Source: Psammoneis japonica
Taxonomy: Eukaryota
NCBI GenBank assembly: GCA_008632985.1
Contig: QPGO01000166.1
Coordinates: 124,001 to 162,867, forward strand
Reading direction: 5' to 3'
Length of the DNA stretch: 38,867 nucleotides
In this document: positions 9,936-38,867 of the stretch, one piece after another
How the letters are laid out: the number at the start of each line of letters is the position of its first letter
How positions within the stretch are numbered: position 1 is the stretch's first letter
Program-made: the position numbers and the translations under genes
The notes under the pieces: generated by a model
Database searches by the model: none
What the model saw: only the letters and a program-made list of their open reading frames with translations
Told to the model about the DNA's origin: nothing

Positions 9936-10260
9936 CATCGGGAAGTAATTTGCTACCCATAACATAGCGACGGGTCTATCTTTTGTAGTTTGGCCCTCGT
10001 CTTCTCTTCTCTGCTTGGGAGTTCTTTGGCGTCTACAGCATGTCGCAGCACCTTGTAGTGACACAATGAGCTGAAACCTGAAAGAGATGTAGATTGCAAG
10101 ACAAAGGAAAAAGCGAAGCTCGCGACACCAAAGAGAAGCATAAAAATAAGTCTTAGGAACTGTAGTAGTACGAGCGCAACAAGTCAACTGCGAATTTTGC
10201 CACTGCTTCGGTACGAGCAATTGACAGAGGCTGTCTCTTGTTCCAACGCCATTGGGAGAC

Positions 10261-12780
10261 GGAGTGCCACGTCTGCTCAAGTCCCACCGGGCAGCCTCAC
10301 ATTGCTGCTGTGCTTTTCAAAACATCCTCCATGGTGACTCCAACCCCAAACGACAATCAGTGCATTGCCTTGTCTTGAAGAACCCAGACTGTCAAGATGA
10401 ATGGTCAAACGCATCCACTTCTTGCTCACAACCAAGGTAAAATGAAAAATGACAATTCTGTCTGAGCACAAGAAGGTGAGAGCATGGTGCAAAAGAAACA
10501 GAAAAACACAATGCATGACACATGATTGTGCCAAGAACACACTTGCTCTGTCTTGACTCATCTCTGAGTGTTGTTTGTTGCGTGCAATGCCGCGCTGAAC
10601 AAGAGCCAGAAAACCTGTGCCAGTTGATTTGCTGTGGTCACATGGAGCACAGACTTGACTCAGCAGTGACATCACTCCAAAATCCATCTCAATCATTGCA
10701 AAAGCCACACTGGCACTTGCAGCGCAGACATCAAAATGCACAAATTAACACAGCCTGTGCTGAGCAGATCAGACAATGCTTGAGCACCCATGGCAGTGAG
10801 CACCTCGGCAAAGAGAAACACAAGCCATGCTTGCACATTGGCGCAGCATTGCTTGAGTTGATTGTCAGAACTGTGAGCAAATCAAAAGCCAAGCTGAGCT
10901 CATCATTGGGTGGCATGTCTTCCAGAAACATGCAAAGTCCACGGAATTTTGAGCTCTGTCACTTTCCGCAGCTGGCATGCTCTTGGTGCCTGGAAAATTT
11001 CTTCAATGTGCTGCAACTGGGTCGGATGATGTGGCAACTTTCAGATGTGTCAGAGCTGGCGCTGGCAACACAAATCTTCAAAGCAACAGTGGCAAGCCCA
11101 TCACAAGCATCGCGGTGAAATCTTTTTCTTTGTTGGCTGGTGCTTGGCTTGTGTGGTCCTGCAATGGTTGTGGCAACATCCAATCTTTGCAGACACACAC
11201 CAAGTGCAGAGATTTTTTGTTTCCAAACAGCTGATCATGGGTGCTCTGTTTGATTGTTGCAGCGTTGCCTTCTTTGTCCATCGCATGACTTTCCCGAACT
11301 CTGCGGTCACTCAATCTCTCTGCGAGTGCAATCAACACATTCTTAAAACCAATTTCTTTGGATTTCTCATGTGCAGCCTCAGCGAAAAATCCTGAGCCAC
11401 ATGTGCTGCACTTGCTGCTGTTGGCAAAGCCAGGATGGGCTTGTGTGCAGTCAAGATTTCCTTTTGTCTTTTGATTCTGTGTTGCTCAAGTTGAGTTGGA
11501 AGAGGCACAACTTCTTTCTTTTGGACCCTTTTGTGGGCTTGAAATGTCTTTCTGCAAACCAAAATGTGTTGACTCCAAGGCGCAAAAGTCTCAAATGCAC
11601 AGGACTTGTGCACCACCAAGCTCAGGTGGTCAGATGGCTTTCATGAGCTTTGTGTGCTGGTCTTTCACCATTGGGGACTCAGCTCAAGCAAAACTCTGTG
11701 TTTTTTGACAATGGACTTTTGCTGGAAATGCCGCTGGCTTTGAACTTTGAAACAACAGCAAGATCCCTTGCTTTTCCAGAGCAGCAGGCATGGAAAGAGG
11801 CTGGTTGGCGTGATTTGCTGGAGAATGAAAAAGCCACTGCTGCGTCAGTCTTCATGCTGAAACAACACGTTGCTTGCCTGCAGCACTCTGCTTTGATCTT
11901 CCTCATGATTTTTCACATTTTCTCAATTGTTCTGTTAAATCAGGTTGTGCCATGGTGGCAATCAAAATTGAAGGTGTGGTTAAAAAACATTGCAACAATG
12001 TTTGATGCCATGGCTTGAAGCACAACAGCAGTGCAGGCAGTGTCAACAAAGGTGTGAGAGCCGCGGCGGGATTCGAGATCATCAGCTGCTGCTGCTGTGC
12101 TTGGCTGTCAAGAAGCCCCCATGATCTTCTCATCACTGGGAAAGAAGCTGACATGTTCCTCATCAGAGCCCATGCTCTTTGTCTTGCAACTCGAGTGGCC
12201 CTGAGTTGCCAGCTTTGCACGTGGGAGAGAGCGCAAGTGTTGCATGTCGTCAGCCACAAAAAGGACCTTCTGACTTTAAAAGAGCAGGTGAAAACTGATG
12301 CTGCTGGCATTGCACTCAGCAGCTAGGATGCTGACTTCTCTGACAACAGGAAATGCATCACAGAAAGCTGCTCTGTTTCTTGCTCTCTCTCTCATCCGTG
12401 CGTGGATCACACAGCATGGAGCACACAGCACTGCCAAGCCACAAAAGCCAAACTTTTCCCAAACTCTGGATCCATTCAAAGCTCCCAAAACAACTTCACT
12501 AAAAGTGACAGGTGATGCCAGAACAAGAGTGGTGTCAACACTGGCAGGCTGGGCAGCTGCGGGCCCTGTCGCATCACACAGCTTTTTTGGCAGCTGCTCC
12601 TCTGCCCTTTTCCGGGGGGGGGGGGGGTTTCTTGAGAGAGATGGAGAGAAAACTTTCAAAATCTTTCTGCCTGAGAGTGCTCCTAACCCTCTAAGCCACC
12701 ACAATGTCTAGCCAGTCCTGTGTCCAGCAGCAAGTGGACACTCTCCATCCCACGGACTGTCCAAATGACAATGCATGAAG
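10261..12780. other. TpA/CpG-depleted hypermutated island 1 (decayed repeat or gene relic)
   Basis: About 8 TA dinucleotides in 10261-12660 by manual count; TG/CA excess; ORFs here are Cys/His-rich and lack Tyr. Confidence 0.85.
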
Positions 12781-16630: not shown

Positions 16631-17409
16631 GGTTGCTTTGTTTTGAGCTTTCCGATGTATATATTATATGTAATCTATCTTGAAGGAGCCTCGATTGAGC
16701 TGCTCAATCAACACTAGCCTTCAGTTGTAGCCCTCTCTATCTCGTCACCTTCATAATCTTACACTTTACACAAACACAGTTTTATTCCGATTCTAGGTTT
16801 TCTTTGAAGCTTCAACGAGCAAGTGGATTGCTTGCCTATCGTCGACGTGTAAATCAGCGACACTTCGGCGGCTTTGTACTTCCAATCCCAAATCCGATAG
16901 GTCGCGTGTCAATCGCCTCTTGGGTTAGCGCTTCCTTGGTCGACACTTTCCAGTGATTATAAGTACAGGGTAGCTCGGGAGAGTTAAAGCACAGGAAGGA
17001 AGAACTTTTTGCGATGAGACGAGACCCGGCAAGCAGCAAGCTGTGGCAATGGGCTCGGAGCTTTGCAGCAGTGCTTGGCCTTTCGTGCTTCGTGTGGTGG
17101 TGAAACGTGTGCGGCTTTTGTACGGTATCTTCAAGCGGGCTGGTGGAGGGAGTTTTTGCGCGCCAAAGTTCCATTTTAGATTATCCAGACCTGAGCACAT
17201 TATTTATAACATTACATCAGGAATCTACAAGAATGAAAATTTGGAAAAACTGGAGTGGGCGGAAGGACCACAGTTGGGACATGGAACAGGGCCCATCATG
17301 TTCTCCCGTCTTCCAACGTCATCTTGAATCGAAGTCGACTCCCCTTGTGCTACACCACAAATCTACCCCTTCTGCCAAGGCAGGGGCAAGGTGCAGAAGC
17401 AATCAATAA

Positions 17410-18969
17410 GAGCCAAAGAAAAAGATGCACAAGGCAGTCTGGTGGGGAGACTCGCTGTCCAAACAAAACAAGAAACAAGCAGAAGCCTCGAGAAAGGCAA
17501 CTTCCCCAACAAGAAGCACTCAAGCAAGCAAAAGCCATCAGGCCCTCTGCCTGTCTGTCTGTCTTGAGTTCACATGTTCTTCCCAGTTTGATGACAACCA
17601 CCATGTTGAAGTTGAGTGTGGCAACAACTGCGCCACTTTTCCACCCTCTCCATTGGCGGTGGCACGTGCCGCAGAGTGTCTTTTGTGGTGCTGCGGGAAA
17701 GACCACCACAAAGAAGAAAAGTGCTGACAGCAGCACCCCAGCTGGTTCTGTCCTTCCATTTGGTTGGGAAGAGAACAACTTTGCCAATTGCACATGCTGT
17801 CGTCTGCTGTGCCCAACAACATCCTGGTTTTTGCCACCACCCTCTCGCACACGAACAAGCAAAAATGTGCACACACACTGGTTGTGTGCTCCATCAACAC
17901 CTGATGACATTCACCACAGTGCCAGCAATGCTTGGAGGCTTCTTGGCCCCAACTTTGACACAGCGAACATGTGCCATGATTTGTGACGGATGTTTTGTGA
18001 AAGATGTTTGTCACAATCACGACAGACATTCAAGCCATTTGAGTTTTAGCTGGATGATTTGGCTTCTCAATCTCCACAATGAGCACAGGTTTCTTGGCCC
18101 TGTGGTCTCATTGCGGCATGCACCCACCATGATTTGCAATGATTGTTTTGCAAAGGACACTTGCACAATGCCCACGGCGGACACTCAAACCTTCTTTGTT
18201 CCTGCCAGACAGTGTCTCAACCCTGCAAAGAAAAAAGCTTGATTCCCATGCACACACACACACAGCTGCAAAAGCAGGGAAGACAAATGCGCACTTGTCT
18301 TTGGAAAGTTGTCAGATTTTGCTGATCATCGGCACCATTGCCAAACTGAAAACTTGGGCTGGCACACACAATTTTGTGTGGGCACTCACTGAGCTGGGTG
18401 CACAGGCAAAATGAGCATCGCTTGATGAACACAATGTCTCAAATTTTGCACCCAAGCAAACCACAAAGCAAACTGACAAGGATGCTGTGCAGAAGAGCAA
18501 GCAGCAACAAGCAGAGCAAGGTCAGCAACAATGCCATCTTGGAGCCCCTGGGTGCTTTGCTCACCACCTCCTCTGTCAAAACAATCAAGAACATGCCCAG
18601 CTCCTGCTCTGCTGCCAGCCCCACCCTGGACATGCAAAGCTTCTTTCCAACACCCATCAGCACACACTGCCTGCATTCATGCCCAGCTGTTTCCATCTGG
18701 ACTGCTCCCTGCTGCTGCAGAGCCGATTGGTCCAAAGCCACTTTGTGCACTTTGCACTCCCATTGTGCCTCTTGTTCCCCACACACAATGGGGATCACAA
18801 AGCCTCAGTCTTGCCATCACCAAAGCACTCTCTGACCAACTTCTCAAGAACTGCATGCCCAACTTGCTGCTCCACCTCTGAGGGGGGGTCCCTGCCCACA
18901 TGACACCGCAGCCGGCCGTTTCACCCTGCTGCACCACCAGGTGCCCTGAGAGAGAGCAGCGGGCCCTCA
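17410..18969. other. TpA/CpG-depleted hypermutated island 2
   Basis: One TA (TTAG, ~18047) seen in about 1560 bp; TA-rich sequence resumes abruptly at 18970. Confidence 0.88.
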
Positions 18970-21390: not shown

Positions 21391-22260
21391 TCGTCGACTG
21401 CTGCAAACAAGTGAACTTGTCCAAGTTCAGAATGTTCATTGTCTTTACCTCCTTGCAGACAAAATAGAGCATTCCATTCGTCACGCCAAACCCAATGACA
21501 GGTTTTGTTTTGGGGACGCAATGCCAGATGCTCAATGGTGCCTGCACCATGAAGCATTTGCCACGGGTCTCGGCAGTTTGGCGTCATGGGTGTAAAGCGC
21601 CAAAGAGCCCCACTTTGCGATCTTCTGTCGCGAAGAATCGAGGCAAGGCCTCGTCTCGAACATCACAGGCAAACGATTCAAAAACGCCGACGCTAAAGGA
21701 AGTCCCTTGAGCCCCTCGCCTTCCAAATGGATCCACCTGATGTATGACACCGTAGCCATGCTCTTCACACGAGACCCAAGAATTCCAGGGCGTCGGTCCA
21801 CCGCCTGTTTAAAAAAAAACAAAGGCAAAACAAGCGTTGCGTAGCCGAAAAAAGAAACGTACCACATCTACCACATCATCCACGGGGCCCCACCTGCTGT
21901 CTGTCTGAAGGAACAGATGAAAGATATAATCTGTTGCAAAGCTCTACTAGGAAAGCTACAGTAGCTAATTGCTGGATGTACAGTTATAAGCAAGAGAGAT
22001 ACTTCGTAGCTGCTGTGCCAGTGCCATTCAAATCATTAATTCGTTTCTGCACTGCTGGTAACACCTTAGGTAGACAGCTATGTACCTAGACCCACAGGTA
22101 AGTTAGATGGAAAAAGGAGCACGCAGGCAATGTCAAGAACAAGAACGTCAAGCTATTCGATCTATGGTTTTCGTGTAGGAACTTCGAATGCTTCCAAATT
22201 CGAACTTTGAAACCGCACCTTTCAATTCTTGAAAAGATTCGAAATCGATTCTTGATCGAA

Positions 22261-23366
22261 TCATCGTGTTTTTTTCTGCTGCACGGACTGGATCACTCGT
22301 TTGGCTAGCTTTTTGTACTTCCTTTTCATTTCCTTTGCTGCTAAATGAAAGTCGTTTGTCGGGTCCGAATTGTAAAGTAAGGCGTTTTTCAGCATAAGAT
22401 CAATATCAGCAAAGAAGGCTTGAAGAGTCTGGTATTCCATTCCGTCAACTTTCTTCTGAATTAGGGTGAGATTCATGGGGGTTTCAACAACGTCGAAATA
22501 ATCAGGTGCACCCATAGCGGCACAGTTTTCTCGATCAATGGGGATTCGAAATGGGTTTGTCCCCTGCAAATTATCAAATTCCATGCCCCATAAGACTCGA
22601 AAGATAGGTTCATAGAGTCGGTGCAATGCCTGCCGAGGAGTTTCCACCATGCGAGAAAGCCGCAGTTCCTCTTCTCGTTCAGCCTCCACCTAGCGCGTTC
22701 TTCCTCTTCTCGACGTCTTCGTGCGGACTCTCTTTCTCGTGCTCGCTGAATAGCCCGTTGCCCTTCGATATCGTTTTTTCTGGCAATCTCTTCTTGGCTT
22801 AATCCATACGAAGCCACGGTCCCAGTCTTGGCTTTTGTGGCTTTCTTCTTTGCCTTCTTCTTCTCTCGAGCTAGCAGTCCCAAGGCCATGCCTTCCATCC
22901 TTCGCTTTCGCGCTGCTTCGTCCATGCCATTGCGACGAGGCAAGGATGCCAAAGTCGCAGCCAGCAGAGCTTCCTGTTCATGCTGCTTGTGCTCACGCAA
23001 AGTAAGAGCGGCTCGCAATGCTTCTTCTTCAATCTTTTCTCTTGACGAAACTCGATCCCACGGGTCTCCACCTTGCGTGCTCTGCATAAAACTTTCCACA
23101 CTTTCTCGCAATCTAGCGCCCACGTTCTTGTATAGCTTGTCACGGACCAATTCGGGTTTTCTTTGAGCCACGATACCCTTCATCAGAAAATGTTTGTACG
23201 TTGGTTCGAGAGGTTCTCGACGAGTAAGCTGCTGCAGCGATTCACGGAGTTGTTTCTTCAGCAATTCCTCATCAGGTTCGTTGTTTTTCGAAGCAGATGT
23301 CACGGTCGACTCGACGGCATTATTGTTTGTTGCCTTATCTCCTGCAGGGGTCGGTCCGGAAGACAT
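22261..23366 (-). CDS. Bromodomain protein; one frameshift near 22690
   Basis: NPFRIPID...APDYFDVVETPMNL...DIDLMLKNALLYN; the coiled-coil N-terminal part joins if one G is restored (GCT AGG GTG GAG). Confidence 0.88.
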
Positions 23367-23609
23367 GGTGAAGTACAAATCGGTAAAAGTGTAGGATATA
23401 ATACAAATATAATAAGGCCCTCTCTCAGTTGGCGGTGCACGAGGGACGAGGAACGCATGAATACGCATGTATGCCGCATGTCGCCACAACACCCCTGATT
23501 ACAGACAGACTCTAGAAAGAAATCTGTCAATCAAGCTAACTTGACGACTCTAGCTTGCGCAAGCAAACTCATTAGTCTACGTACTGTACCTGGTAGGCCC
23601 TCTAGCCCA

Positions 23610-24527
23610 TTACTTCTGTTTCTTATCTATGGTAGCCTGACGTTTCTGATCCCATTCATCTAATTCGGCAACAAGTTCAGGATCCATCGTCACCGGTCCG
23701 ATGTTCGAGCCATCATTGTCATTCGAGACGCCGAACTTCTGGATGTTGGCACCTCGGTTGTCATTTTCTTCCAGGCGTCTTGTGATGGCTCTCGTGATAT
23801 CGCCAAATTCATAGTTGTCATTGCTATCCTTGCCGGCAAACTTGAGAATGCTTCGTTTTGTAATGTCTCCCACCTGGTATTTGGCGTCGCCGGTTAGAGC
23901 CTCCTTGAATCGTTGGTCAACAGACACAGACAAAGCCTCCAACAGCCTGCCGCCAACATCCTGCGCCAGAGACACATTCAACATGTCAAGCAGCAGCTTG
24001 GCTGGTAATGCAGAAGCTACGGGACTGATACCGACTCCAAATGAAGCCAACACTCTGCACAAAAGCAGGATGTCTTCTAGCTTGTAGTCGCCGGATCCAA
24101 CCCTTCTCAGAATTTCTTTGCTGACGTCTCCGAATTCGTATTCTTCGTTCCCAGTGAATTTATTCACTCTCTCCTTTATTTTAGAATCGGCAAACCGACT
24201 GAGATCTCCAAATTGGTACTCATCTTTCCCCGTCAAGTCGTTCACCGCGGATTTCGCTCGTTTGTCCAGCCATCTGCTTAGGTCACCAAATTCGTACTCA
24301 TCCTTTCCCGTCAGTTTATTGATAAAAGATTTTGAGAAATCTCCAAATTTGTACTTTTTCGACTCCCGGCCGCTGTCCTTCTTGTTGTGGAGTGTGACCT
24401 GCCCGCGACTTTGGATCGTAGCACGGCTTACAAAACCCCACGTAACGGAGAGACAGAGAGCGCCTAAAACAAGAAGAAATGCCCCACAACAGCCAAATCG
24501 TGCCATTTTCTTGATGCGCCGTGCCAT
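23610..24527 (-). CDS. Probably plastid-targeted protein with tandem GxxxYxFGD[LIV][ST] repeats
   Basis: Signal peptide ending TWG-F; six clear and one degenerate YxFGD repeat. Confidence 0.8.
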   Translation of the reverse strand: MARRIKKMARFGCCGAFLLVLGALCLSVTWGFVSRATIQSRGQVTLHNKKDSGRESKKYKFGDFSKSFINKLTGKDEYEFGDLSRWLDKRAKSAVNDLTGKDEYQFGDLSRFADSKIKERVNKFTGNEEYEFGDVSKEILRRVGSGDYKLEDILLLCRVLASFGVGISPVASALPAKLLLDMLNVSLAQDVGGRLLEALSVSVDQRFKEALTGDAKYQVGDITKRSILKFAGKDSNDNYEFGDITRAITRRLEENDNRGANIQKFGVSNDNDGSNIGPVTMDPELVAELDEWDQKRQATIDKKQK

Positions 24528-24859
24528 GACTCACTGACCACTACAAGGCATCTTGACGGAACAACTACACTACAGCTACTCTAGAGCTACTAATACCGGT
24601 AGAGAATAGAGAGTGGAAAGAGCGGAATACAGCAATTGCAGCAACTCTTATACACTGTGCCGGCAGGGGGCGGCAGGATCTTGACTTCTGACTTCATGAT
24701 GGCTTTCCGGGTTACGAAGAAATCCGTCTTTGTCTCCCCCTTCGTCCCGCCGCCGCTGTTCATGCCGGTGCGGCAGCAGTCCAGCTGCCCCCGACGACGA
24801 CTCGCACAGTCAGTGTGGCCTCACTCTATGGCAAGAGAGCCTGCTGGTAAGACTGTAAG

Positions 24860-27480
24860 CCGGGCATGCGCTTTGGTTGGGATGCCATTCACTCCTTTTT
24901 TCTTTTTTTGTTTGTGCAAAACTGTCCAACACACAACTGCTGCAAAAGTGCTTCAAACCACAGAGCATGTTGAGCCACAGCATGGTTGGTGCAAACTGAC
25001 AGACAGCAGAGCCCCCCGACCAGTTTCTGCCACTTTTCAGCTCAGTCAAGAGTCACACACAAACATTGAGAGGTTGTGGGGCTTGGGACTTTGGGCACAC
25101 TGGGGTGTGGTGTGTGTGTGGCTGTGTTGCGGGGGGTGGGGGGGGGGGGGGTCTTTTTTTCCCAGCAAATGCGCCGCGTGGGGACACTCTGCACACAATT
25201 GCAAGACACTCAGCTCCTGCTCAAGGGCACTTTTGCAATGCACTTGCAACACACAGATCTCATGTGCCCTCTTTCATAAAAAAAAATGCCCCATTGTGTC
25301 CAAAGGCCTGGCTGGCGGGCAGTGAAGAAAGAGATGGCTGCTTTTGAAAATGAGGTGGGATGTCATCCAACAATGCCGGTGGCACTGAAAAGACAAAAGC
25401 AAAAAGAGATTAAAATGTTTTTGTTTTGCGTCATTGGAGCAAGACAATCTCTCTTTGAAAAATGGCATTTGACAGCACCACTTCCCGGGCTGTTTGTGTG
25501 CTCAAATTTGGGCACTGCTTCAGCTGATGTGCTCTGGGGGCAACCCTCAGCCACCAAACACAGTCATTTGCCTTTTTGAATGTGAAAATGAGATTCAATG
25601 CCACCCCCATGCAAGAGACTCACATGATCTGCAATGCTGTGCTGCAGCTCTTTCCACAAATGTGGTGCCGCACAAAGTGCCAGCTCTTTGAAGCAACAAA
25701 GTCGCGCAAAGTTTTTTGACTTTGAAACTTTGAGAAGTCAGTGCAGGACCTTTGACTCTCCCACTTTTTTTGTCAATTTCAACCCACAGTGCATTGTTGA
25801 TTGTTCAAGGACAATTTGGCCACAAAGCTGCAATCCATGTGTCGCCACAAACTCCCAATTGAAAGCAACAGGGTTACAAAGAAATGGCACACAAGTGTTG
25901 GTCTTTTTGCTGCAAAGCACCCCCAAGTGGGTGCAACTTCCACTCAAAAGAAAAACATGGCAACACCACTGTCAGTGTGTGGTCTGAGAGAGATGGAAGC
26001 TGTGAATTCTCACAAGGAGAAAATTGACCAGATGAGAGACTGGAAGCATGCCCCCTCCAAGGGGTTTGGTGTTCAACCAGTGGGGGAAACCAGGTTGTTA
26101 AAGAAGATGACATGAGATGATGTAAAAAAGAGGCAGGAAACACTGGCCAAAAAAAGGGTCAGTTTTGGCCAGTGTGAGGCAAAACACCGCCACTCAACAT
26201 TTGGCAGAGTGGGGGCTCATTTTAGTTTTTGACTGGAAGCACCCTTCAAATGTGTGCCATTTTTTTCATTTCAGGTCATTTCCTTCTGACAAGAGCATGC
26301 CGGTCATTTGTCTTTTGCTCACTTCACATCATGTGGTCTGTGAGCAAAAACATGCCACAAATGATTGCAAGCATCCACAGCAGAAATTTTTCAAATTTTT
26401 GACAGGGAGTTTTGCACACCACTCACATTTTGAAATGTGGGGTTGAGTGCAGAGCTCATGATGCATTCATTTTCTGGTCCTTGGGCCCAAACTTCAACAC
26501 CATGTGCTGACAACAAGGTTTCATAAATTGTCCCCCCCCCCCAAAAAAGGCTGTTGAGTCTCACATCGCAATCCTGGACAATCTCTCCCTTGCTTTCTGG
26601 CACATCAAGCTCCCCCCTGCTCTGCATGTGGTCATCTTTCTGCTGCTGTCACATTGCTTGGAGGTGTGAGAAATTGGGTCGTTTTTGACAAATGCCAAAG
26701 TCTGTGGTTTGGCAGCTGTGCTCCTGTCTCACATTTTTTGCACTGCTCCTCTTGAACCACAAGTTCTGAGTGCTGCAGCTTTTGTTTGCTGTTGTGGCAT
26801 GGCAGCTGTGGCTTCAGTCCAAAAGAAAGCAACAAACCTGCCACTTCAATGTGCTGTCTCATCATTCCGATGGCTCCAGAGAGCCAGAAACACTCACCTG
26901 CTCTGCTCTCTGCTGCTTGAGTTGACAAAGAACATTTTTTTCCTCCCCAGCATTGGGCCCCTCCTGTTGTGCAGAACAGCTGTGTTTTCCACCTGTCTTT
27001 TCCTCTTGTCCAGGCAGCTGGCCTGCAAAAACTTGTTCGCTGCCACTGCACAAACAAAGATGGCTCTGCTGAGTGTGGCGCGGCGCCACCTGGCCAACAC
27101 CACAGCCACAAGAAGCATGGGCAATGACTGGAGCACAAGATTTTGAATGTGCAGATGGCAACCATGCAAAATGCAATGTTGCACCTTCTCATTTGTTAGC
27201 TGCCAATGCAGCCGTCAGGTTGGCAGAAGAAGAAGCACAATCTGGGAGACATGGCGGCAAAAACGATGCTGATTGAATGCTCTCTCTTCCAGAGAGCTGC
27301 TCTGGTCTCAAGTGCAAGTCAGTTGCAGACATTTATTTTCTTCAGTTGTCATTTAAAAATTTGACAGCAACACATTTTTGTGTGTGGAAAGACTGGTCAC
27401 AACAATCTTCTGCTGGTGCATTGTCATTCGTTCCCCGGTGCCGGTGCCGCAGACACTGCCACACAAGCAAGTGTGCGATC
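24860..27480. other. TpA/CpG-depleted hypermutated island 3
   Basis: About 8 TA in 24860-27330, all in TTA or TAA context; TG/CA excess. Confidence 0.85.
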
Positions 27481-27487
27481 GACTTAT

Positions 27488-27693
27488 TCACCCCTGACCA
27501 GAAATGAACTTGCTGCATTTCATTATTTTGTAGGTACACTTATGTTCATGTGTAATATATATAATATAAAACGTAGATTTTCAGCATAAAGGAAAAAATA
27601 TATAACATTATGTACTGAATATGACATATTATATCTGATTGATAGTAGTTAGTGGGGTTTGGGGTTCAATAACATCTCACTGGTCAGGGGTGA
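27488..27693. mobile_element. 206-bp AT-rich element bounded by 14-bp perfect inverted repeats (MITE-like)
   Basis: TCACCCCTGACCAG (27488-27501) and CTGGTCAGGGGTGA (27680-27693); no clear target-site duplication. Confidence 0.5.
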
Positions 27694-27792
27694 CATCCCA
27701 ATCTGGAATCAATCTTCGAATCATCAACTAGGGTCTAAACATAAACATTCACCTCTCATGTCGGAGTTATCGTAGTTGCCGTCCTTGTTGCG

Positions 27793-29271
27793 ATGACGAA
27801 AGCCCTCGTAATTCGACGGCTGTACAGGTCTCTTCTTCAATCTTCAAAGCTTTTCACGTACCCCTCTAGAGATGCTGCAGTTTTGTCTTGTCTCTTACAT
27901 CGTACAGGGATGGATGACGGTGTGAAGGACTGGAACGCACTTGTTGCGCCGTATCGTCGAGAAAAGTCAAAGGAGCGAACAGAAGATGATGACAACCCGT
28001 TGCCCCGGGCTCTTGCTCGGGATTTATCGAGAAGTTACGCAGAATTAAAAGAAGAATTCAACTTGCAAGAATCATGGAAACATTCCATGGCACCAGATGA
28101 TGAAAGTCGCACACCGCATCGCATCCTGTTTCGACGATTGCTACGAGAAGTCGTCGCCGGAAGTCCTGATGGCACAACTCAAATGCCACACCCTTCCTCT
28201 ATCGATACCAAGCAATTGCGCAAAATTATCCGTCGTGAGTTTCGTTCAGAGAAGGATTCAATCTCTAGGACTTTTGATGAGTCCGTTCGTCACCAAGTGG
28301 CCTTTGATGCTCTGAGAGCTTTGAATCAAAAGCTAGCTTGGGCTGAGTCTTTGGGCTTTTCTACGACCGAGGACGTGAGTGTGAGAGAATTAAGAAATGA
28401 CCGTCAAAAGGCTAAGGGCGTTAGGGCACTTCCATTGGAGCCTCCGTCTTCCTATTTGCAACCCGGTTGTTATCTTGTTGCGCATCCACTCCTATCGGGC
28501 TTCTTCAGTCGGACAGTGATTTGTTTACTCGAACACACTGATGTGAAGGAAGAGGGGGGACGTATGGCATAGTTGTGAATAGAGTTGGGGTGAGTCCCAT
28601 AAGTGGTCGAGATTGTACCCTGAGGGACGTAGTTCGCGCTGATTCATTTCCCAGACAGCTCGTGAAAGCTTTTGGTGACAGTTCAGTACGCGAGGGAGGT
28701 CCTGTCCACATGTCGCTGCAAATGATGCATGCCTGCACGTCAGAACAAGAAAAACCGCTTGGCGTTGGCGGCACTGCATTGCCCACAGCAGCCAGTCCAG
28801 TTCGAGATGCGGAAACAGAGCGTTCCATCTACTTTCAAGGGGATATCGCACGAGCGGCAGAAGTCGTAGTGAACGGCGAGATGGATCGAGGTATGTGTGC
28901 CTGACGGCTTGTTCTCTTTGGTATCATTTGCGATCTATTACCCTGCTCATACCACGTGGACATTATCCGATAAAGATGATGTGTCATTCTATGTTGGTGC
29001 CAGTTGTTGGGAGATAAATCAGCTCGAGAGTGAAATAAAGAGAGGCTTCTGGTTCCCTTGCACAGGACCTCCTGAAATTGCTTTGACTGGCGTATGCAGG
29101 CACGAAGTTCCAGACCTGGGAGAAGGTGGCAGCAATGTAGATCTCCCAAAATCGGACTTGTGGCTTTCCATGATTTGCGCACTCGGACAGAACGATGCGA
29201 CTCTGGCCCATTTACTGTTCGAAGCAGACATGTATGACGACGAGAACGGCGGACCGTGTGATCTACTGTAG
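27793..29271 (+). CDS. DUF179/AlgH/YqgE-domain protein; frameshift in the G-run near 28555; intron 28891-28975
   Basis: LVAHPLLSGFFSRTVICLLEH, (GTYGIVV)N, GGPV, FYVGASCW..QLESEIKRGFW are DUF179 hallmarks. Confidence 0.85.
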
Positions 29272-29554: not shown

Positions 29555-31298
29555 CTCAATGCCAATGTACCGTCGCTACTGAGTGCCTCCTTTCATGTTG
29601 TCCATGCATGCGTACACATTTTCTGATAAAGCGTACGAACAATATTTAGATGCTGAGTGAAGAATGGTGAATACGAATAAGTCAAGTACAGTGGAAAGGA
29701 AAGGAAAGAAAATACGGTCCATTCAAGATTCAAAAAACATACCTTGATGAGACAAACTCCAGCTTCAAGAAAGAGCTTTGCAACCCGCAAAGTTAGCGAA
29801 GCCTCAAGTAACTGTCAGGTCGCCAGTCGCGTTGTCTCCAGAGTAGTTGTTACGTGAACATCCCTATAACGGTTCCAACTGAGAATCCGAATGCAGCAAT
29901 CTTCTCAATGCCAATGTACCGTCGCTACTGAGTGCCTCCTTTCATGTTGTCCATGCATGCGTACACATTCTGATAAAGCGTACAATCGATTTTAGATGCT
30001 GAGTGAAAAATGGTGAATACGAGTAAGTGAAGTACAGTGGAAAGGAAAGGAAAGGAAATACGGTCCATTCAAGATTCAAAAAACATACCTTGATGAGACA
30101 AACTCCAGCGTCAAGAGAGAGCTTTGCAACTCGCAAAGTTAGCGAAGCCTCAAGTAACTGTCAGGTCGCCAGTCACGTTGTCTCTAGAGTAGCACGTTGT
30201 CTCTAGAGTAGTTGTTACGTGAACATCCCTATAACGGTTCCAACTGAGAATCCGAATGCAGCTATCTTCCTCAATGCCAATGTTCCGTCGCTGCTGAGTG
30301 CCTCCTTTCATGTTGTCCATGCATGCGTACACATTCTGATAAAGCGTACGAACGATTTTAGATGCTGAGTGAAAAATGGTGAATGCGGTAAGTGAAGTAC
30401 AGTGGAAAGGAAAGGAAAGAAAATACGGTCCATTCGAGATTCAAAAAACATACCTTGATGAGACAAACTCCAGCGTCAAGAGAGAGCTTTGCAACCCGCA
30501 AAGTTAGCGAAGCCTCAAGTAACAGTCAGGTCGCCAGTCACGTTGTCTCTAGAGTAGTTGTTACGTGAACATCCCTATAACGGTTCCAACTGAGAATCCG
30601 AATGCAGCTATCTTCCTCAATGCCAATGTTCCGTCGCTGCTGAGTGCCTCCTTTCATGTTGTCCATGCATGCGTACACATTCTGATAAAGCGTACGAACA
30701 ATATTTAGATGCTGAGTGAAGAATGGTGAATACGAATAAGTCAAGTACAGTGGAAAGGAAAGGAAAGAAAATACGGTCCATTCAAGATTCAAAAAACATA
30801 CCTTGATGAGACAAACTCAAGCTTCAAGAAAGAGCTTTGCAACCCGCAAAGTTAGCGAAGCCTCAAGTAACTGCGCCATCCACGTTGTCTCCATAGTAGT
30901 TGTTACGTGAACATCCATATAACGGTTCCAACTCAGAATCCGTATGCGGCTATCTTCTCAATGCCAATGTACCGTCGCTACTGAGTGCCTCCTTTCATGT
31001 TGTTCATGCATGCGTCCACATTCTGATAAAGCGTATGAACGATAGTTAGATGCTGAGTGAAGAATGGTGAATAATACGAGTAAGTGACGTACATAAGGAA
31101 AGGAAAGAAAATACGGTCCACTCAAGATTCAAAAAACAACCTTGATGAGACAAACTCCAGCGTCAAGAAAGAGCTTTGCAACCCGCAAAGTTAGCGAAGC
31201 CTCAAGTAACTGCGCCAGTCACGTTGTCTCCAGAGTAGTTGTTACGTAAACATCCCTATAACGGTTCCAACTGAGAATCCGAATGCAGCTATCTTCTC
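29555..31298. repeat. Tandem array of five ~341-366-bp units containing the 3' coding end and downstream region of the gene at 31242-32240
   Basis: Units start at 29555, 29904, 30270, 30616 and 30957; the last unit runs into the CDS. Confidence 0.95.
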
Positions 31299-37150: not shown

Positions 37151-37439
37151 ACTTTGGTCTACTAAAGATTATCGCACTCAAGAAAAAGTGTGCTTCATTG
37201 ACAGTTGGCTGTCATCTGGTACTCGTATGCAGAAGCGGTGTTGTCGTTGCCAATGCCATGCCGGCCGATGTGGATTGTGGACGGTCTCTGCTCCATTTTT
37301 TTGTTGTTGAACGAACTCGAACGAGAACCGGCCGGCTTGTCAAGTCGCGCGCAAGCGCGAATGGACCGAAATGGGAACAAGGCGGACCGAATCGCAGATT
37401 CCCTGCCATCGCCTCTAGAGAGGCTTGGCTACAACCCCG

Positions 37440-38867
37440 ATGACATGACACAGTGAAAGCCACCGAATGACCGCAACAATCAGTGCACGAACATGTCCTA
37501 TGTGTGGAACACACAGGAGCACATGTGCTCGTGTGGTGCTGCTGAGACAGTGGGGCCAGGAAACAGGAGGGAACAAATCTGCGGGTCCAATTCCGTCCAT
37601 TTTGTTCCCCAACATTGTGTGAACAGAGGGCTGGGCTGGGTGGGAATTTTCAGCATTGTCGGCCCATGTTGGGTTGACACAAAACTGATCTTGTCATCAC
37701 CAGCAGTCCGCCAAACACAATGAGGGGGGGGGAACTGGGGCGGCCTGTCGTCATCATCCGTGGCTCATCTGTCTGCCTCCTGCTGTGCGCTGCTGTTGCA
37801 CAGTGACTCTGCCAAGAGCACAGCTGCCCACACCATGGACACACAATTAAACAACAGGACAGGTGGGGCTGCGTGGGCTCCGCCGCAGGCTTCAACAATT
37901 CGTCCTCGTTCAATCAGCGTCGGATTGTCAGTTGCCGGCCGGCCTCCCATTTCCAGCATGATTGTACATCGGCTGCGGGGACTTCGAGTTTTTGCATGCT
38001 AAATTTTACGGGGCAGAGCTTTTTCAATGCATCGATCCAAATCTGCACCACGCACCGTGTTGCATCTTTTCAAAAATCAACATCTGTCAGTGTTGTCGAT
38101 GCCACCCACACGTTCCAAGGCATGTCGCAATGGCACATGTCTGCTTTGTCTTGCTCCTCTTGTTCTTGTCAATTTGTCTTGATCTGCTGTTCTCTTCTTT
38201 GATGCATGCTCTTTTGTAGCTTGTTCAGATTTGACCATGAGCTCCGCTCTGAACGCTGCTTTTGCACTCCCCTTCGCTCTACGATCTGCAGTTCGCTTTC
38301 TGCATTTTTGGTGTTCGACTTTGGCTCGGGCATGGACAACCTTTTTCACAAGATTCTTCCACATGTACTTCAGTGATGCAATGGTCAATCGTTTGCTGCC
38401 ATTCTCTTGGGCTGTTTTCAAGAAGGAGCGTCGCAAAGCCTTTGTTCTCCTTGTGAACAATGGTGCTCACGCAATCGTCGTCCAATGTCGCTTTGTTGTG
38501 AAAGATTCTCATGCTGTCTGAGAATTCTGTCATGTCTTCAAGGGCTTCAATGGATCTCCAATTCTTCTCTTTTGCCATTTTCTGCCGCGTGAAAGCTTCT
38601 TCCGAAGAGAAAACATTGCCCAACCAAAGAATCGAATGACCTTGCCGTTCGCGTCGTCCTTCTTTGGCCATGCATCGGCAAAGTCTTTCTTCTGCATGCT
38701 TCGTTTGGATGCCAAGAAATCAGCCATTGACCCCCTTGCCCACACCAACAGATGCCGAGAAAGAGCCAAGACCAACTGGGCAATGCTTGCCCCAGCTTCC
38801 CTCATTGAGTTTGGCAGTGGAAGAATCCAAGATCTGAGATGCTTGTCGGGGTCTTGCTCTTGCAAGT
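37440..38867 (-). other. Partially TpA-depleted island 4 carrying a decaying minus-strand coding relic; runs off the window end
   Basis: About 8 TA in 1430 bp and more CpG retained than in islands 1-3; frameshifted protein-like segments (VIRFFGWAMFSL, KKVVHARAK). Confidence 0.7.

What the first reader, a model, noticed from the sequence alone, without database searches (positions are those of the whole stretch)
24860..27330. Surviving TpA sites are almost all in TTA/TAA context
Seen: in the cores of islands 1-3, 16 of 17 TA sites I found are TTA or TAA (TTAA x7, TTAG x3, ATAA x2, GTAA x2, CTAA, TTAC); the exception is one CTAG. GTAC, ATAT, GTAT and ATAC are absent. Inference: a strand-symmetric flanking preference points to an enzymatic or structure-dependent mutator rather than general GC-biased drift, since A-runs, T-runs and AT steps persist.
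Basis: partly seen in the sequence, partly recalled or inferred. Interest (0 to 1): 0.7.

Follow-up and report, generated by a model that had tools for sequence, protein, structure and literature searches.

The report
Flank code of a TpA-erasing mutator
In the repeat DNA of this diatom-like genome almost every TA step has been rewritten to TG or CA, and the few TAs that survive do so because the neighbouring bases slow the change in a graded, predictable way (fastest for TA followed by C or T, slowest for TA followed by A), a fingerprint that can be used to find the unknown A-to-G mutator.

Summary
The count is exact: 17 TA sites in three island cores, 16 in TTA/TAA (8 of 8 inside the given coordinates), beyond chance (p=8e-4 against island composition). 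The rule is overstated: in 232 kb of held-out islands it is 576 of 814 (71%, background 38%), and a yes/no TTA/TAA rule fits poorly. The real rule is graded. Copia copies caught at different stages show TA>TG/CA directly (1079 A>G, 14 A>T, 0 A>C at TA), on both strands, unclustered and ahead of CpG loss. Per-strand rates are TAA 1, TAG ~1.6, TAT/TAC ~3; an A at +2 or T at -3 halves the rate on both strands (second family). These rates predict island survival (Spearman 0.99 over 10 classes) and rank all 17 window survivors below the median. Best reading: a repeat-targeted adenine-to-guanine mutator acting on chromosomal DNA, like the TpA hypermutation of Bigelowiella natans (2026 preprint); enzyme unknown. 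This scan noted the phenomenon and a TAY preference before on other DNA of this genome.

The parts
24858..27333 (.). Island 3 core: TpA-erased, CpG-poor, TG/CA-rich decayed repeat DNA
   Evidence: 24860-27330 holds TA 8, CG 27, TG 269, CA 268 at 48% G+C; context-blind two-state model calls 24857-27484; no Pfam family in 9 open frames or in six frames of 26100-27301 read with X at stops
25277..25278 (.). Surviving TA, hexamer CATAAA
   Evidence: predicted rate at 14th percentile of background TA
25411..25412 (.). Surviving TA, hexamer ATTAAA
   Evidence: 6th percentile
25875..25876 (.). Surviving TA, hexamer GTTACA; not a TA in run X1 (one more base), so an assembly error or an allele
   Evidence: 26th percentile
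26099..26100 (.). Surviving TA, hexamer GTTAAA
   Evidence: 5th percentile
26123..26124 (.). Surviving TA, hexamer TGTAAA
   Evidence: 3rd percentile
26223..26224 (.). Surviving TA, hexamer TTTAGT
   Evidence: 9th percentile
26524..26525 (.). Surviving TA, hexamer CATAAA
   Evidence: 14th percentile
27197..27198 (.). Surviving TA, hexamer GTTAGC
   Evidence: 47th percentile
26559..26868 (.). Segment of an old interspersed repeat family; 16 other places at 67-77% identity, all in TA-depleted DNA
10213..12683 (.). Island 1 core (8 of the 17 TA); part of it matches TA-normal relatives on other contigs, which polarise the change
   Evidence: of 20 TA in relative L073, 15 read TG/CA/CG here and 1 stays TA; reverse change 1 of 82
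17410..18969 (.). Island 2 core (1 of the 17 TA)
37227..38867 (.). Island 4: TA-depleted with much CpG kept (younger stage); runs to the contig end
   Evidence: of 34 TA in relative L068, 28 read TG/CA here, reverse 0 of 104
23610..24530 (-). Open frame (306 aa) with normal TA and CG, left neighbour of island 3
   Evidence: no Pfam family
27745..28572 (+). Open frame (275 aa) with normal TA and CG, right neighbour of island 3
   Evidence: no Pfam family

Best explanation
A mutator aimed at repeat/transposon DNA converts the A of 5'-TA-3' to G in chromosomal DNA, one site at a time and on either strand, so TA becomes TG or CA and then is no longer a target. SHOWN: the direction, the restriction to TpA, both strands, independence between copies, and graded flank effects: own-strand +1 base C~T (about 3) > G (1.1-1.6) > A (1); A at +2 or T at -3 slows both strands about twofold; best site roughly R-A-T-A-Y-Y, worst N-T-T-A-A-A. 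Survivors are the sites whose summed two-strand rate is lowest, which is why they look like TTA/TAA. CpG decay is a separate, slower process. INFERRED: the chemistry is deamination of adenine to hypoxanthine by a TadA/ADAT-like enzyme, fixed as G at replication; the outer flanks act on the duplex (binding or opening) and the +1 base on the catalytic step; the process is a host defence against mobile DNA. Probability of the shown part about 0.93, of direct adenine deamination about 0.6.
For: Direction and purity: 8 low-divergence Copia copies, per strand at TA: A>G 1079 of 3926, A>T 14, A>C 0; A>G elsewhere AA 79/6438, CA 69/7295, GA 30/7503; CG>CA 137/5815. One copy: 126 of 183 TA converted, 13 of 344 CG, transversions 0.03%. 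Both strands, no runs: neighbouring hits share a strand in 0.49-0.54 of pairs. Independence: same product in two copies median 0.59 over 132 pairs. Strand choice follows the +1 base: at A/C sites the C-followed A is hit at 28 of 30 decided sites, at A/T 17 of 19, at C/G 35 of 38. Rates from copies predict survival in held-out islands: Spearman 0.988 over 10 classes; eight hexamer bins fall monotonically from 0.387 to 0.005; 17 of 17 window survivors lie below the median predicted rate. Second family (12 copies, 143 sites): +1 C 3.75, G 1.1, T 3.3; outer flanks 2.0-4.0; no strand bias, 0.95 (0.77-1.13). Precedent: TpA-only A:T>G:C hypermutation in B. natans (10.64898/2026.01.13.699255); TadA-derived ABE7.10 favours 5' YAY (PMC10188366 passage). 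An ADAT2-like gene exists in the genome (L122).
Against: No enzyme activity, inosine or de novo mutation was seen. The deaminase set looks ordinary: 9 PF00383 matches (dCMP-deaminase-like, RibD-like, guanine-deaminase-like by my reading of the sequences, one TadA-like, one ADAT2-like) and 4 PF02137 matches at 2 loci, with no expansion or fusion seen; ADAT2 is a universal tRNA enzyme. ABE7.10 accepts 5' C, whereas CA here is hit at 0.95% against 27.5% for TA. Sequence alone cannot say whether the A or its partner T carries the lesion. The four-rate model still misfits held-out islands (deviance 23.6 on 6 df, p=6e-4). Exact symmetry of the outer flanks is not shown (second family: free fit better by 30 log units, bootstrap ratio for T 0.35-1.01). 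First family shows a mild strand bias, 1.21 (1.05-1.44). About a third of TA in heavily mutated copies are new (63 of 175 stand opposite non-TA in the TA-normal copy), so survivors in old islands mix ancestral and re-created sites.
Confidence: 0.6

Rival explanations
1. Two steps: a DNA methyltransferase (or other writer) reading the duplex hexamer marks adenine at TpA in silenced DNA, and the marked base (such as N6-methyladenine) is then deaminated or miscopied.
For: Outer flanks act on both strands about equally while the +1 base is strand-specific (own/other ratio C 3.6, T 2.3; outer 0.78-0.94), as a duplex reader followed by a strand-specific step would give; parallels 5mC decay at CpG.
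Against: No adenine methyltransferase was searched for; no modification data; TA>CG double changes are rare (3 of 183), which fits either model.
Confidence: 0.13
2. The lesion is on T: thymine in TpA of repeats is oxidised or otherwise modified and pairs with G, giving T>C (recalled: 5-hydroxymethyl/5-formyluracil chemistry).
For: A:T>G:C at a palindromic TA cannot be assigned to A or T from sequence; transitions only.
Against: Tet_JBP (PF12851) gave no match in the genome, although the control rang nowhere, so absence is not shown; the 5'-T-A-Y-3' reading matches a known adenine deaminase preference.
Confidence: 0.11
3. An error-prone polymerase (Pol eta/iota type) fills repair patches in heterochromatin and inserts G after a primer-end T (recalled: WA hotspot).
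For: A>G at AA (1.2%) and CA (0.95%) is above GA (0.4%) and above non-CpG G>A (0.18-0.48%) in the same copies; regional spread along elements.
Against: TA is hit 22-fold more than AA and 98.7% of changes at TA are transitions; recalled Pol eta spectra have AA close to TA and many transversions; hits are not strand-clustered.
Confidence: 0.09
4. Editing of retroelement RNA or cDNA before insertion (ADAR- or APOBEC-like), inherited by daughter copies.
For: The clearest series is in LTR retrotransposons; two copies share all 94 conversions, so mutated copies can be copied.
Against: Each copy carries TG and CA in near-equal numbers and without strand runs; copies are mostly independent; ADAR's optimum 5'-UAG (PMC10661471 passage) is a slow context here; non-retroelement-looking islands show the same change.
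Confidence: 0.03
5. GC-biased drift or gene conversion, base composition, selection for TTAA target sites, or an assembly artefact.
For: Islands are rich in A- and T-runs, which raises the chance share of TTA/TAA to 56%; one of the 8 sites is not confirmed in run X1.
Against: Uniform survival is rejected (deviance 1022); G+C changes by 1.5 points only; other A:T pairs are hit 22- to 69-fold less; TTAA inside Copia bodies survives without any insertion (23 of 83 site-copy pairs; 24 of 34); X1 contigs carry the depletion.
Confidence: 0.02

Closest known systems
TpA hypermutation of integrated viral and other foreign DNA in Bigelowiella natans (Mettrop et al., bioRxiv 10.64898/2026.01.13.699255; read parts 1-4 of 5, supplements closed)
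   Same: A:T>G:C transitions only, at TpA, giving TpG and CpA; regional; clusters low in TpA and high in CpA+TpG; enriched for transposon domains; ADAT2 proposed.
   Different: Different supergroup (named relatives of the ADAT2-like protein here are diatoms); here near-complete erasure (island/background TA 0.09) over 113 of 200 kb of arbitrary stretches, against 124 clusters there; the main text has no occurrence of 'flank', 'context', 'trinucleotide' or 'diatom', so the graded flank rule is not reported there; no de novo rate measured here.
Repeat-induced point mutation (RIP) of Neurospora and other fungi
   Same: Repeat-targeted, dinucleotide-specific transition mutagenesis that scars transposons with sharp borders; diatoms carry RID-related DNMT4 (PMC9998398 passages).
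   Different: RIP is C>T (preprint text; CpA>TpA recalled) and creates TpA; this process removes TpA by A>G. Dependence on homology pairing or sex not tested.
TadA/ADAT2 deaminases and the evolved ABE7.10 DNA editor
   Same: A>G with 5' T and 3' pyrimidine favoured, runs of A disfavoured (5' YAY favoured, 5' AAA disfavoured; PMC10188366 passage).
   Different: ABE7.10 also takes 5' C; it is engineered and works on Cas9-opened single strands (recalled); here both strands of native chromatin are hit and outer flanks act on both strands.
ADAR / APOBEC3 editing of retroelements
   Same: Deamination-type hypermutation of mobile elements with a flank preference.
   Different: Those leave one-strand, clustered changes; here both strands, unclustered, and the ADAR optimum UAG is slow.

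Membership tests
B. natans-type TpA hypermutation | Changes are almost only A:T>G:C transitions | tested here: met
   1079 A>G, 14 A>T, 0 A>C at TA in 8 copies
B. natans-type TpA hypermutation | Restricted to TpA, giving both TpG and CpA | tested here: met
   27.5% per strand at TA vs 0.4-1.2% at GA, CA, AA; TG 1232, CA 1369
B. natans-type TpA hypermutation | Confined to regions of foreign or mobile DNA, leaving TpA-poor, CpA+TpG-rich clusters | tested here: met
   Islands with TA 0.09, CA 1.54, TG 1.57 of background; Copia copies affected; Pfam-named genes of the window lie outside islands
B. natans-type TpA hypermutation | De novo rate about 1000-fold above the genome, active in only some lines | not testable with these tools
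   Needs mutation-accumulation lines; copies at very different stages with few other changes are compatible
B. natans-type TpA hypermutation | Same flank preference as the B. natans mutations | not testable with these tools
B. natans-type TpA hypermutation | ADAT2 homologue present as candidate enzyme | tested here: inconclusive
   ADAT2-like exon L122 with HAE and PC motifs; the N residue named in the preprint and any DNA activity were not tested
RIP (fungal) | C:G>T:A transitions as the main change | tested here: not met
   CG>CA 2.4% and other G>A 0.18-0.48% against TA>TG 27.5%
RIP (fungal) | RID/DNMT4-type methyltransferase required | tested here: inconclusive
   27 PF00145 matches, one beside a chromodomain exon (L154); no phylogeny, no function
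RIP (fungal) | Triggered by duplicated sequence during the sexual cycle | not testable with these tools
   TA-normal multi-copy families exist, so repetition alone is not enough
ADAR/APOBEC retroelement editing | Changes on one strand, in runs | tested here: not met
   Adjacent hits share a strand in 260/493, 411/766, 539/1096 pairs
TadA/ABE7.10-like deaminase signature | 5' T and 3' pyrimidine favoured, 3' A disfavoured | tested here: met
   +1 rates A 1, G 1.56, T 3.11, C 3.27; A 1, G 1.11, T 3.28, C 3.75
TadA/ABE7.10-like deaminase signature | 5' C also accepted | tested here: not met
   CA A>G 69 of 7295

The most novel reading that the evidence does not exclude
Diatoms have a natural adenine editor for double-stranded chromosomal DNA: a host complex that reads a near-palindromic six-base site around TpA, deaminates one adenine, nucleates in the 5' third of young LTR retrotransposons and spreads along them, and has rewritten about half of this genome. 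With B. natans in another supergroup, it would be a second, A-to-G arm of eukaryotic genome defence beside RIP and APOBEC.
Probability: 0.3. Interest if true: 0.92.

Novelty: new variant of a known kind. Interest (0 to 1): 0.7.

Why it matters
A targeted A>G DNA mutator has been described once, in a 2026 preprint on a chlorarachniophyte, without an enzyme and without flank data. A quantitative six-base signature, derived from polarised copies and able to predict survival genome-wide, is what is needed to test candidate enzymes in vitro, to ask whether the B. natans and diatom processes are the same, and to tell single- from double-strand chemistry. It also means stop codons and Tyr codons are systematically erased in old diatom repeats, which affects transposon dating and gene calling; and a natural DNA adenine deaminase would matter for base editing.

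Tried and rejected
Binary rules: TTA|TAA (deviance 601) and YTAR (376) both fail against four graded rates (24). A-tract stiffness alone: rejected, because an A at +2 or T at -3 also protects CTAG and CTAC cores (0.36 vs 0.035; 0.34 vs 0.024). Identity of the island-3 repeat: no Pfam family, no preferred reading frame among copies, no convincing terminal repeats, and none of its 16 relatives is TA-normal over the match, so island 3 itself could not be polarised; islands 1 and 4 and Copia families were used instead. Enzyme hunt: PF00383, PF02137, PF12851, PF00145 searches of the genome gave no expanded or fused deaminase; PF12851 found nothing but its control rang nowhere. Expression: no RNA holder listed; run X2 shows intron-like joints and no cover over islands 1-3, which is a blank and not used as evidence. 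Literature: five searches found no paper on TpA erasure in diatoms; passages of PMC9399415, PMC11500981 and 10.1101/2025.11.02.686105 were irrelevant; PMC7884421 seen as a listing only. A filter dropped most 5' sites of the Copia element and first misled me into thinking the reference copy was part-mutated; corrected.

Full report
1. Observation. The window has four stretches where TpA nearly vanishes while G+C stays near 48%. A two-state model that sees only whether a step is TA places them at 10213-12683, 17408-18969, 24857-27484 and 37227-38866. Eight lie within 24860-27330, all TTA/TAA. GTAC, ATAT, GTAT and ATAC are absent. 16 of 17 is unlikely against the window's other TA (38%; p=2e-6) and against island composition (56%; p=8e-4). 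A contig of public run X1 covers 21411-27254 with 13 other letters and 16 gaps, so the depletion is real; it does not carry the TA at 25875. X1 may be the sample behind the assembly.

2. Held-out test. I fetched 39 stretches of the same genome: 19 beside the window or around relatives of island 3, and 20 at round-number places on 7 large contigs. Of the latter, about 113 of 200 kb are island; this is not a random sample of all contigs. Islands, trimmed by 100 bases at each edge, total 232 kb with 814 TA. TTA/TAA make up 576 of 814 (71%; background 2499 of 6521, 38%), YTAR 458 of 814, RTAY 30 of 814 (background 30%). Survival relative to background runs from TTAA 0.62 through CTAA 0.27, CTAG 0.11, GTAA 0.09, CTAC 0.07, ATAA 0.07 to GTAC 0.016, ATAC 0.008, ATAT 0.003. 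Uniform survival has deviance 1022 (9 df), the binary TTA|TAA rule 601, binary YTAR 376, and four additive per-strand terms 23.6 (6 df, still p=6e-4). At the depth of the window's cores the share is 182 of 218, and 16 of 17 is then unremarkable (p=0.2). AA and TT are unchanged (0.99, 1.02), AT is 0.85, G+C 49.1% against 47.6%.

3. Direction, seen directly. Island 3 is old repeat DNA: 16 relatives at 67-77% identity, all TA-depleted over the match, no protein family. Islands 1 and 4 have TA-normal relatives: 15 of 20 TA of L073 read TG, CA or CG in island 1 with 1 reverse change in 82; 28 of 34 TA of L068 read TG or CA in island 4 with 0 reverse in 104. A 6.6-kb Copia-type LTR element (RVT_2, gag-pre-integrase) gave 20 copies at 79-99% identity. 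Copy L134 has converted 126 of 183 filtered TA (64 TG, 62 CA) while losing 13 of 344 CG, with 0.03% transversions. In 8 low-divergence copies, at positions where two TA-normal copies agree, A in TA went to G in 1079 of 3926 strand-sites, to T in 14, to C in 0; A>G was 79/6438 after A, 69/7295 after C, 30/7503 after G; CG>CA was 137/5815. A second pair gave 73 TG, 75 CA and 25 kept of 183 TA. Neighbouring conversions share a strand no more than by chance (0.49-0.54). Copies are mostly independent: the same product at shared sites has median 0.59 over 132 pairs; one pair shares all 94 and counts as one history (both were left in the fits, and intervals come from resampling sites).

4. The flank code. 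With 258 sites and 4349 site-copy observations, the product (TG or CA) tells which strand's A was hit. Where the two As have different 3' neighbours, the A before a pyrimidine wins: C over A at 28 of 30 decided sites, T over A 17 of 19, C over G 35 of 38, G over A 13 of 15; C over T 22 of 31 and T over G 20 of 29 are weaker. A joint fit of survival and direction gives +1: A 1, G 1.56, T 3.11, C 3.27; +2: A 1, G 1.52, T 2.05, C 2.25; -2: A 1, others 0.72-0.75; -3: A 1, G 0.89, C 0.62, T 0.39. The inner flank is strand-specific (own/other ratio 3.6 for C, 2.3 for T), whereas the outer pair acts on both strands about equally (0.94, 0.89, 0.78; intervals reach 1). A second family of 12 copies, all part-converted and with CG intact (212-226 per copy), repeats this: 143 sites kept, 131 columns dropped (120 with a CG in some copy); +1 C 3.75, G 1.11, T 3.28; outer terms 2.0-4.0; strand bias 0.95 (0.77-1.13). 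There the strictly symmetric outer model fits worse than the free one, and sites were ascertained from polymorphism, so exact symmetry is not established. The first family has a mild strand bias of 1.21 (1.05-1.44).

5. Closing the loop. Rates taken only from the Copia copies rank the ten NTAN classes of the held-out islands with Spearman 0.988. Across eight hexamer bins survival falls steadily from 0.387 to 0.005, and all 17 window survivors fall below the median predicted rate, 11 of them at or below the 9th percentile. NTTAAA is barely depleted at all (0.74-1.38). The survivors are therefore the sites with the lowest summed rate on two strands. About a third of TA in heavily mutated copies are newly made (63 of 175), so old islands are a balance of loss and re-creation, weighted to slow contexts.

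6. Mechanism. Shown: targeted, TpA-restricted, transition-only, two-stranded, unclustered, flank-graded change of chromosomal repeat DNA, ahead of CpG decay. Inferred: adenine deamination. It explains the purity, and the 5'-T-A-Y-3' preference matches the TadA-derived ABE7.10 (5' YAY favoured, 5' AAA disfavoured; PMC10188366, passage), though ABE7.10 also takes 5' C. The two-strand action of the outer flanks suggests a duplex step. The genome has an ADAT2-like gene (L122) whose named relatives are diatom proteins (Skeletonema, Thalassiosira; best unnamed hits 66-71%), which is also my basis for calling the organism diatom-like, and a TadA-like gene (L119); the deaminase set shows no expansion. 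That is a candidate list, not evidence of activity. A prior adenine mark, a T-side lesion and an error-prone polymerase remain open at about 0.1 each; their known properties are recalled, not looked up. RNA/cDNA editing and GC drift are excluded by the strand and context data.

7. Known systems. The closest is the TpA hypermutation of integrated viral DNA in Bigelowiella natans (bioRxiv 10.64898/2026.01.13.699255; parts 1-4 of 5 read; supplements closed, and Table S2 may hold flank data that bear on novelty). Three defining features are met here; rate and shared flanks could not be tested. It works like RIP in aim but fails RIP's defining C>T test; diatom DNMT4 is RID-related (PMC9998398, passages) and a chromodomain exon sits beside one methylase domain here, with no link shown. 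ADAR's UAG optimum (PMC10661471, passage) is a slow site here. Searches found no paper on this in diatoms; the library lacks most subscription papers.

8. Relation to earlier notes of this scan. Notes on other pieces of this genome already report the TpA islands, the preprint, and TAY, YTAR, TTA/TAA and TARA versions of the flank rule. They were leads; I tested the rules here.

9. Verdict. Observation confirmed; interpretation partly supported. New variant of a kind known from one preprint. Interest 0.70; most novel reading probability 0.3, interest 0.92.

Noticed in passing
L126-L145 (Copia family, 6.6 kb): TA loss starts about 0.5-3 kb from the element's 5' end and fades toward the 3' end and both LTRs, independently in many copies (for example L129: 12/12, 23/24, 12/14, 22/24, 13/19, 5/21 ... 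0/27, 0/22 per 500 bases). Suggests a sequence- or promoter-defined nucleation site with polar spreading.
   Followed up: partly
L132 and L135: Two Copia copies share the same product at all 94 commonly converted sites but differ in how far conversion has gone, so a part-mutated copy was duplicated and mutation went on afterwards.
   Followed up: no
L111, L115, L165-L174: A large Copia family at 95-96% mutual identity in which all 12 copies examined are TA-depleted (23-60 TA per 3.3 kb) yet keep their CG (212-226); several of these copies have long open frames.
   Followed up: partly
L151, L152, L153, L157, L160: Several C5 DNA-methyltransferase copies lie inside TA-depleted islands, some with stops; possibly carried by mobile elements.
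   Followed up: no
L154:1231-3508: A chromodomain exon upstream of a C5-methylase domain, like the chromodomain-bearing diatom DNMT4 described in PMC9998398.
   Followed up: no
window 26696-26697 and 26705-26706: Run X1 reads TG for CA and CA for TG at two nearby steps, the pattern expected if two haplotypes converted the same TA or CG on opposite strands; an assembly error is not excluded.
   Followed up: partly
window 29555-31298: Tandem array with a period near 350 bases, about 91% identical copies, with normal TA and CG: repetition alone does not attract the mutator.
   Followed up: no
window 10200-11200; L073-L086: The start of island 1 matches a multi-copy, TA-normal family clustered on one contig, so island 1 includes a decayed stray copy of it.
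   Followed up: partly
window 27488-27501 and 27680-27693: Perfect 14-base inverted repeat flanking an AT-rich stretch just right of island 3; possibly a small non-autonomous element.
   Followed up: no
8 low-divergence Copia copies: A>G at AA (1.2%) and CA (0.95%) is above non-CpG G>A (0.18-0.48%), a possible weak off-target activity of the same process.
   Followed up: partly
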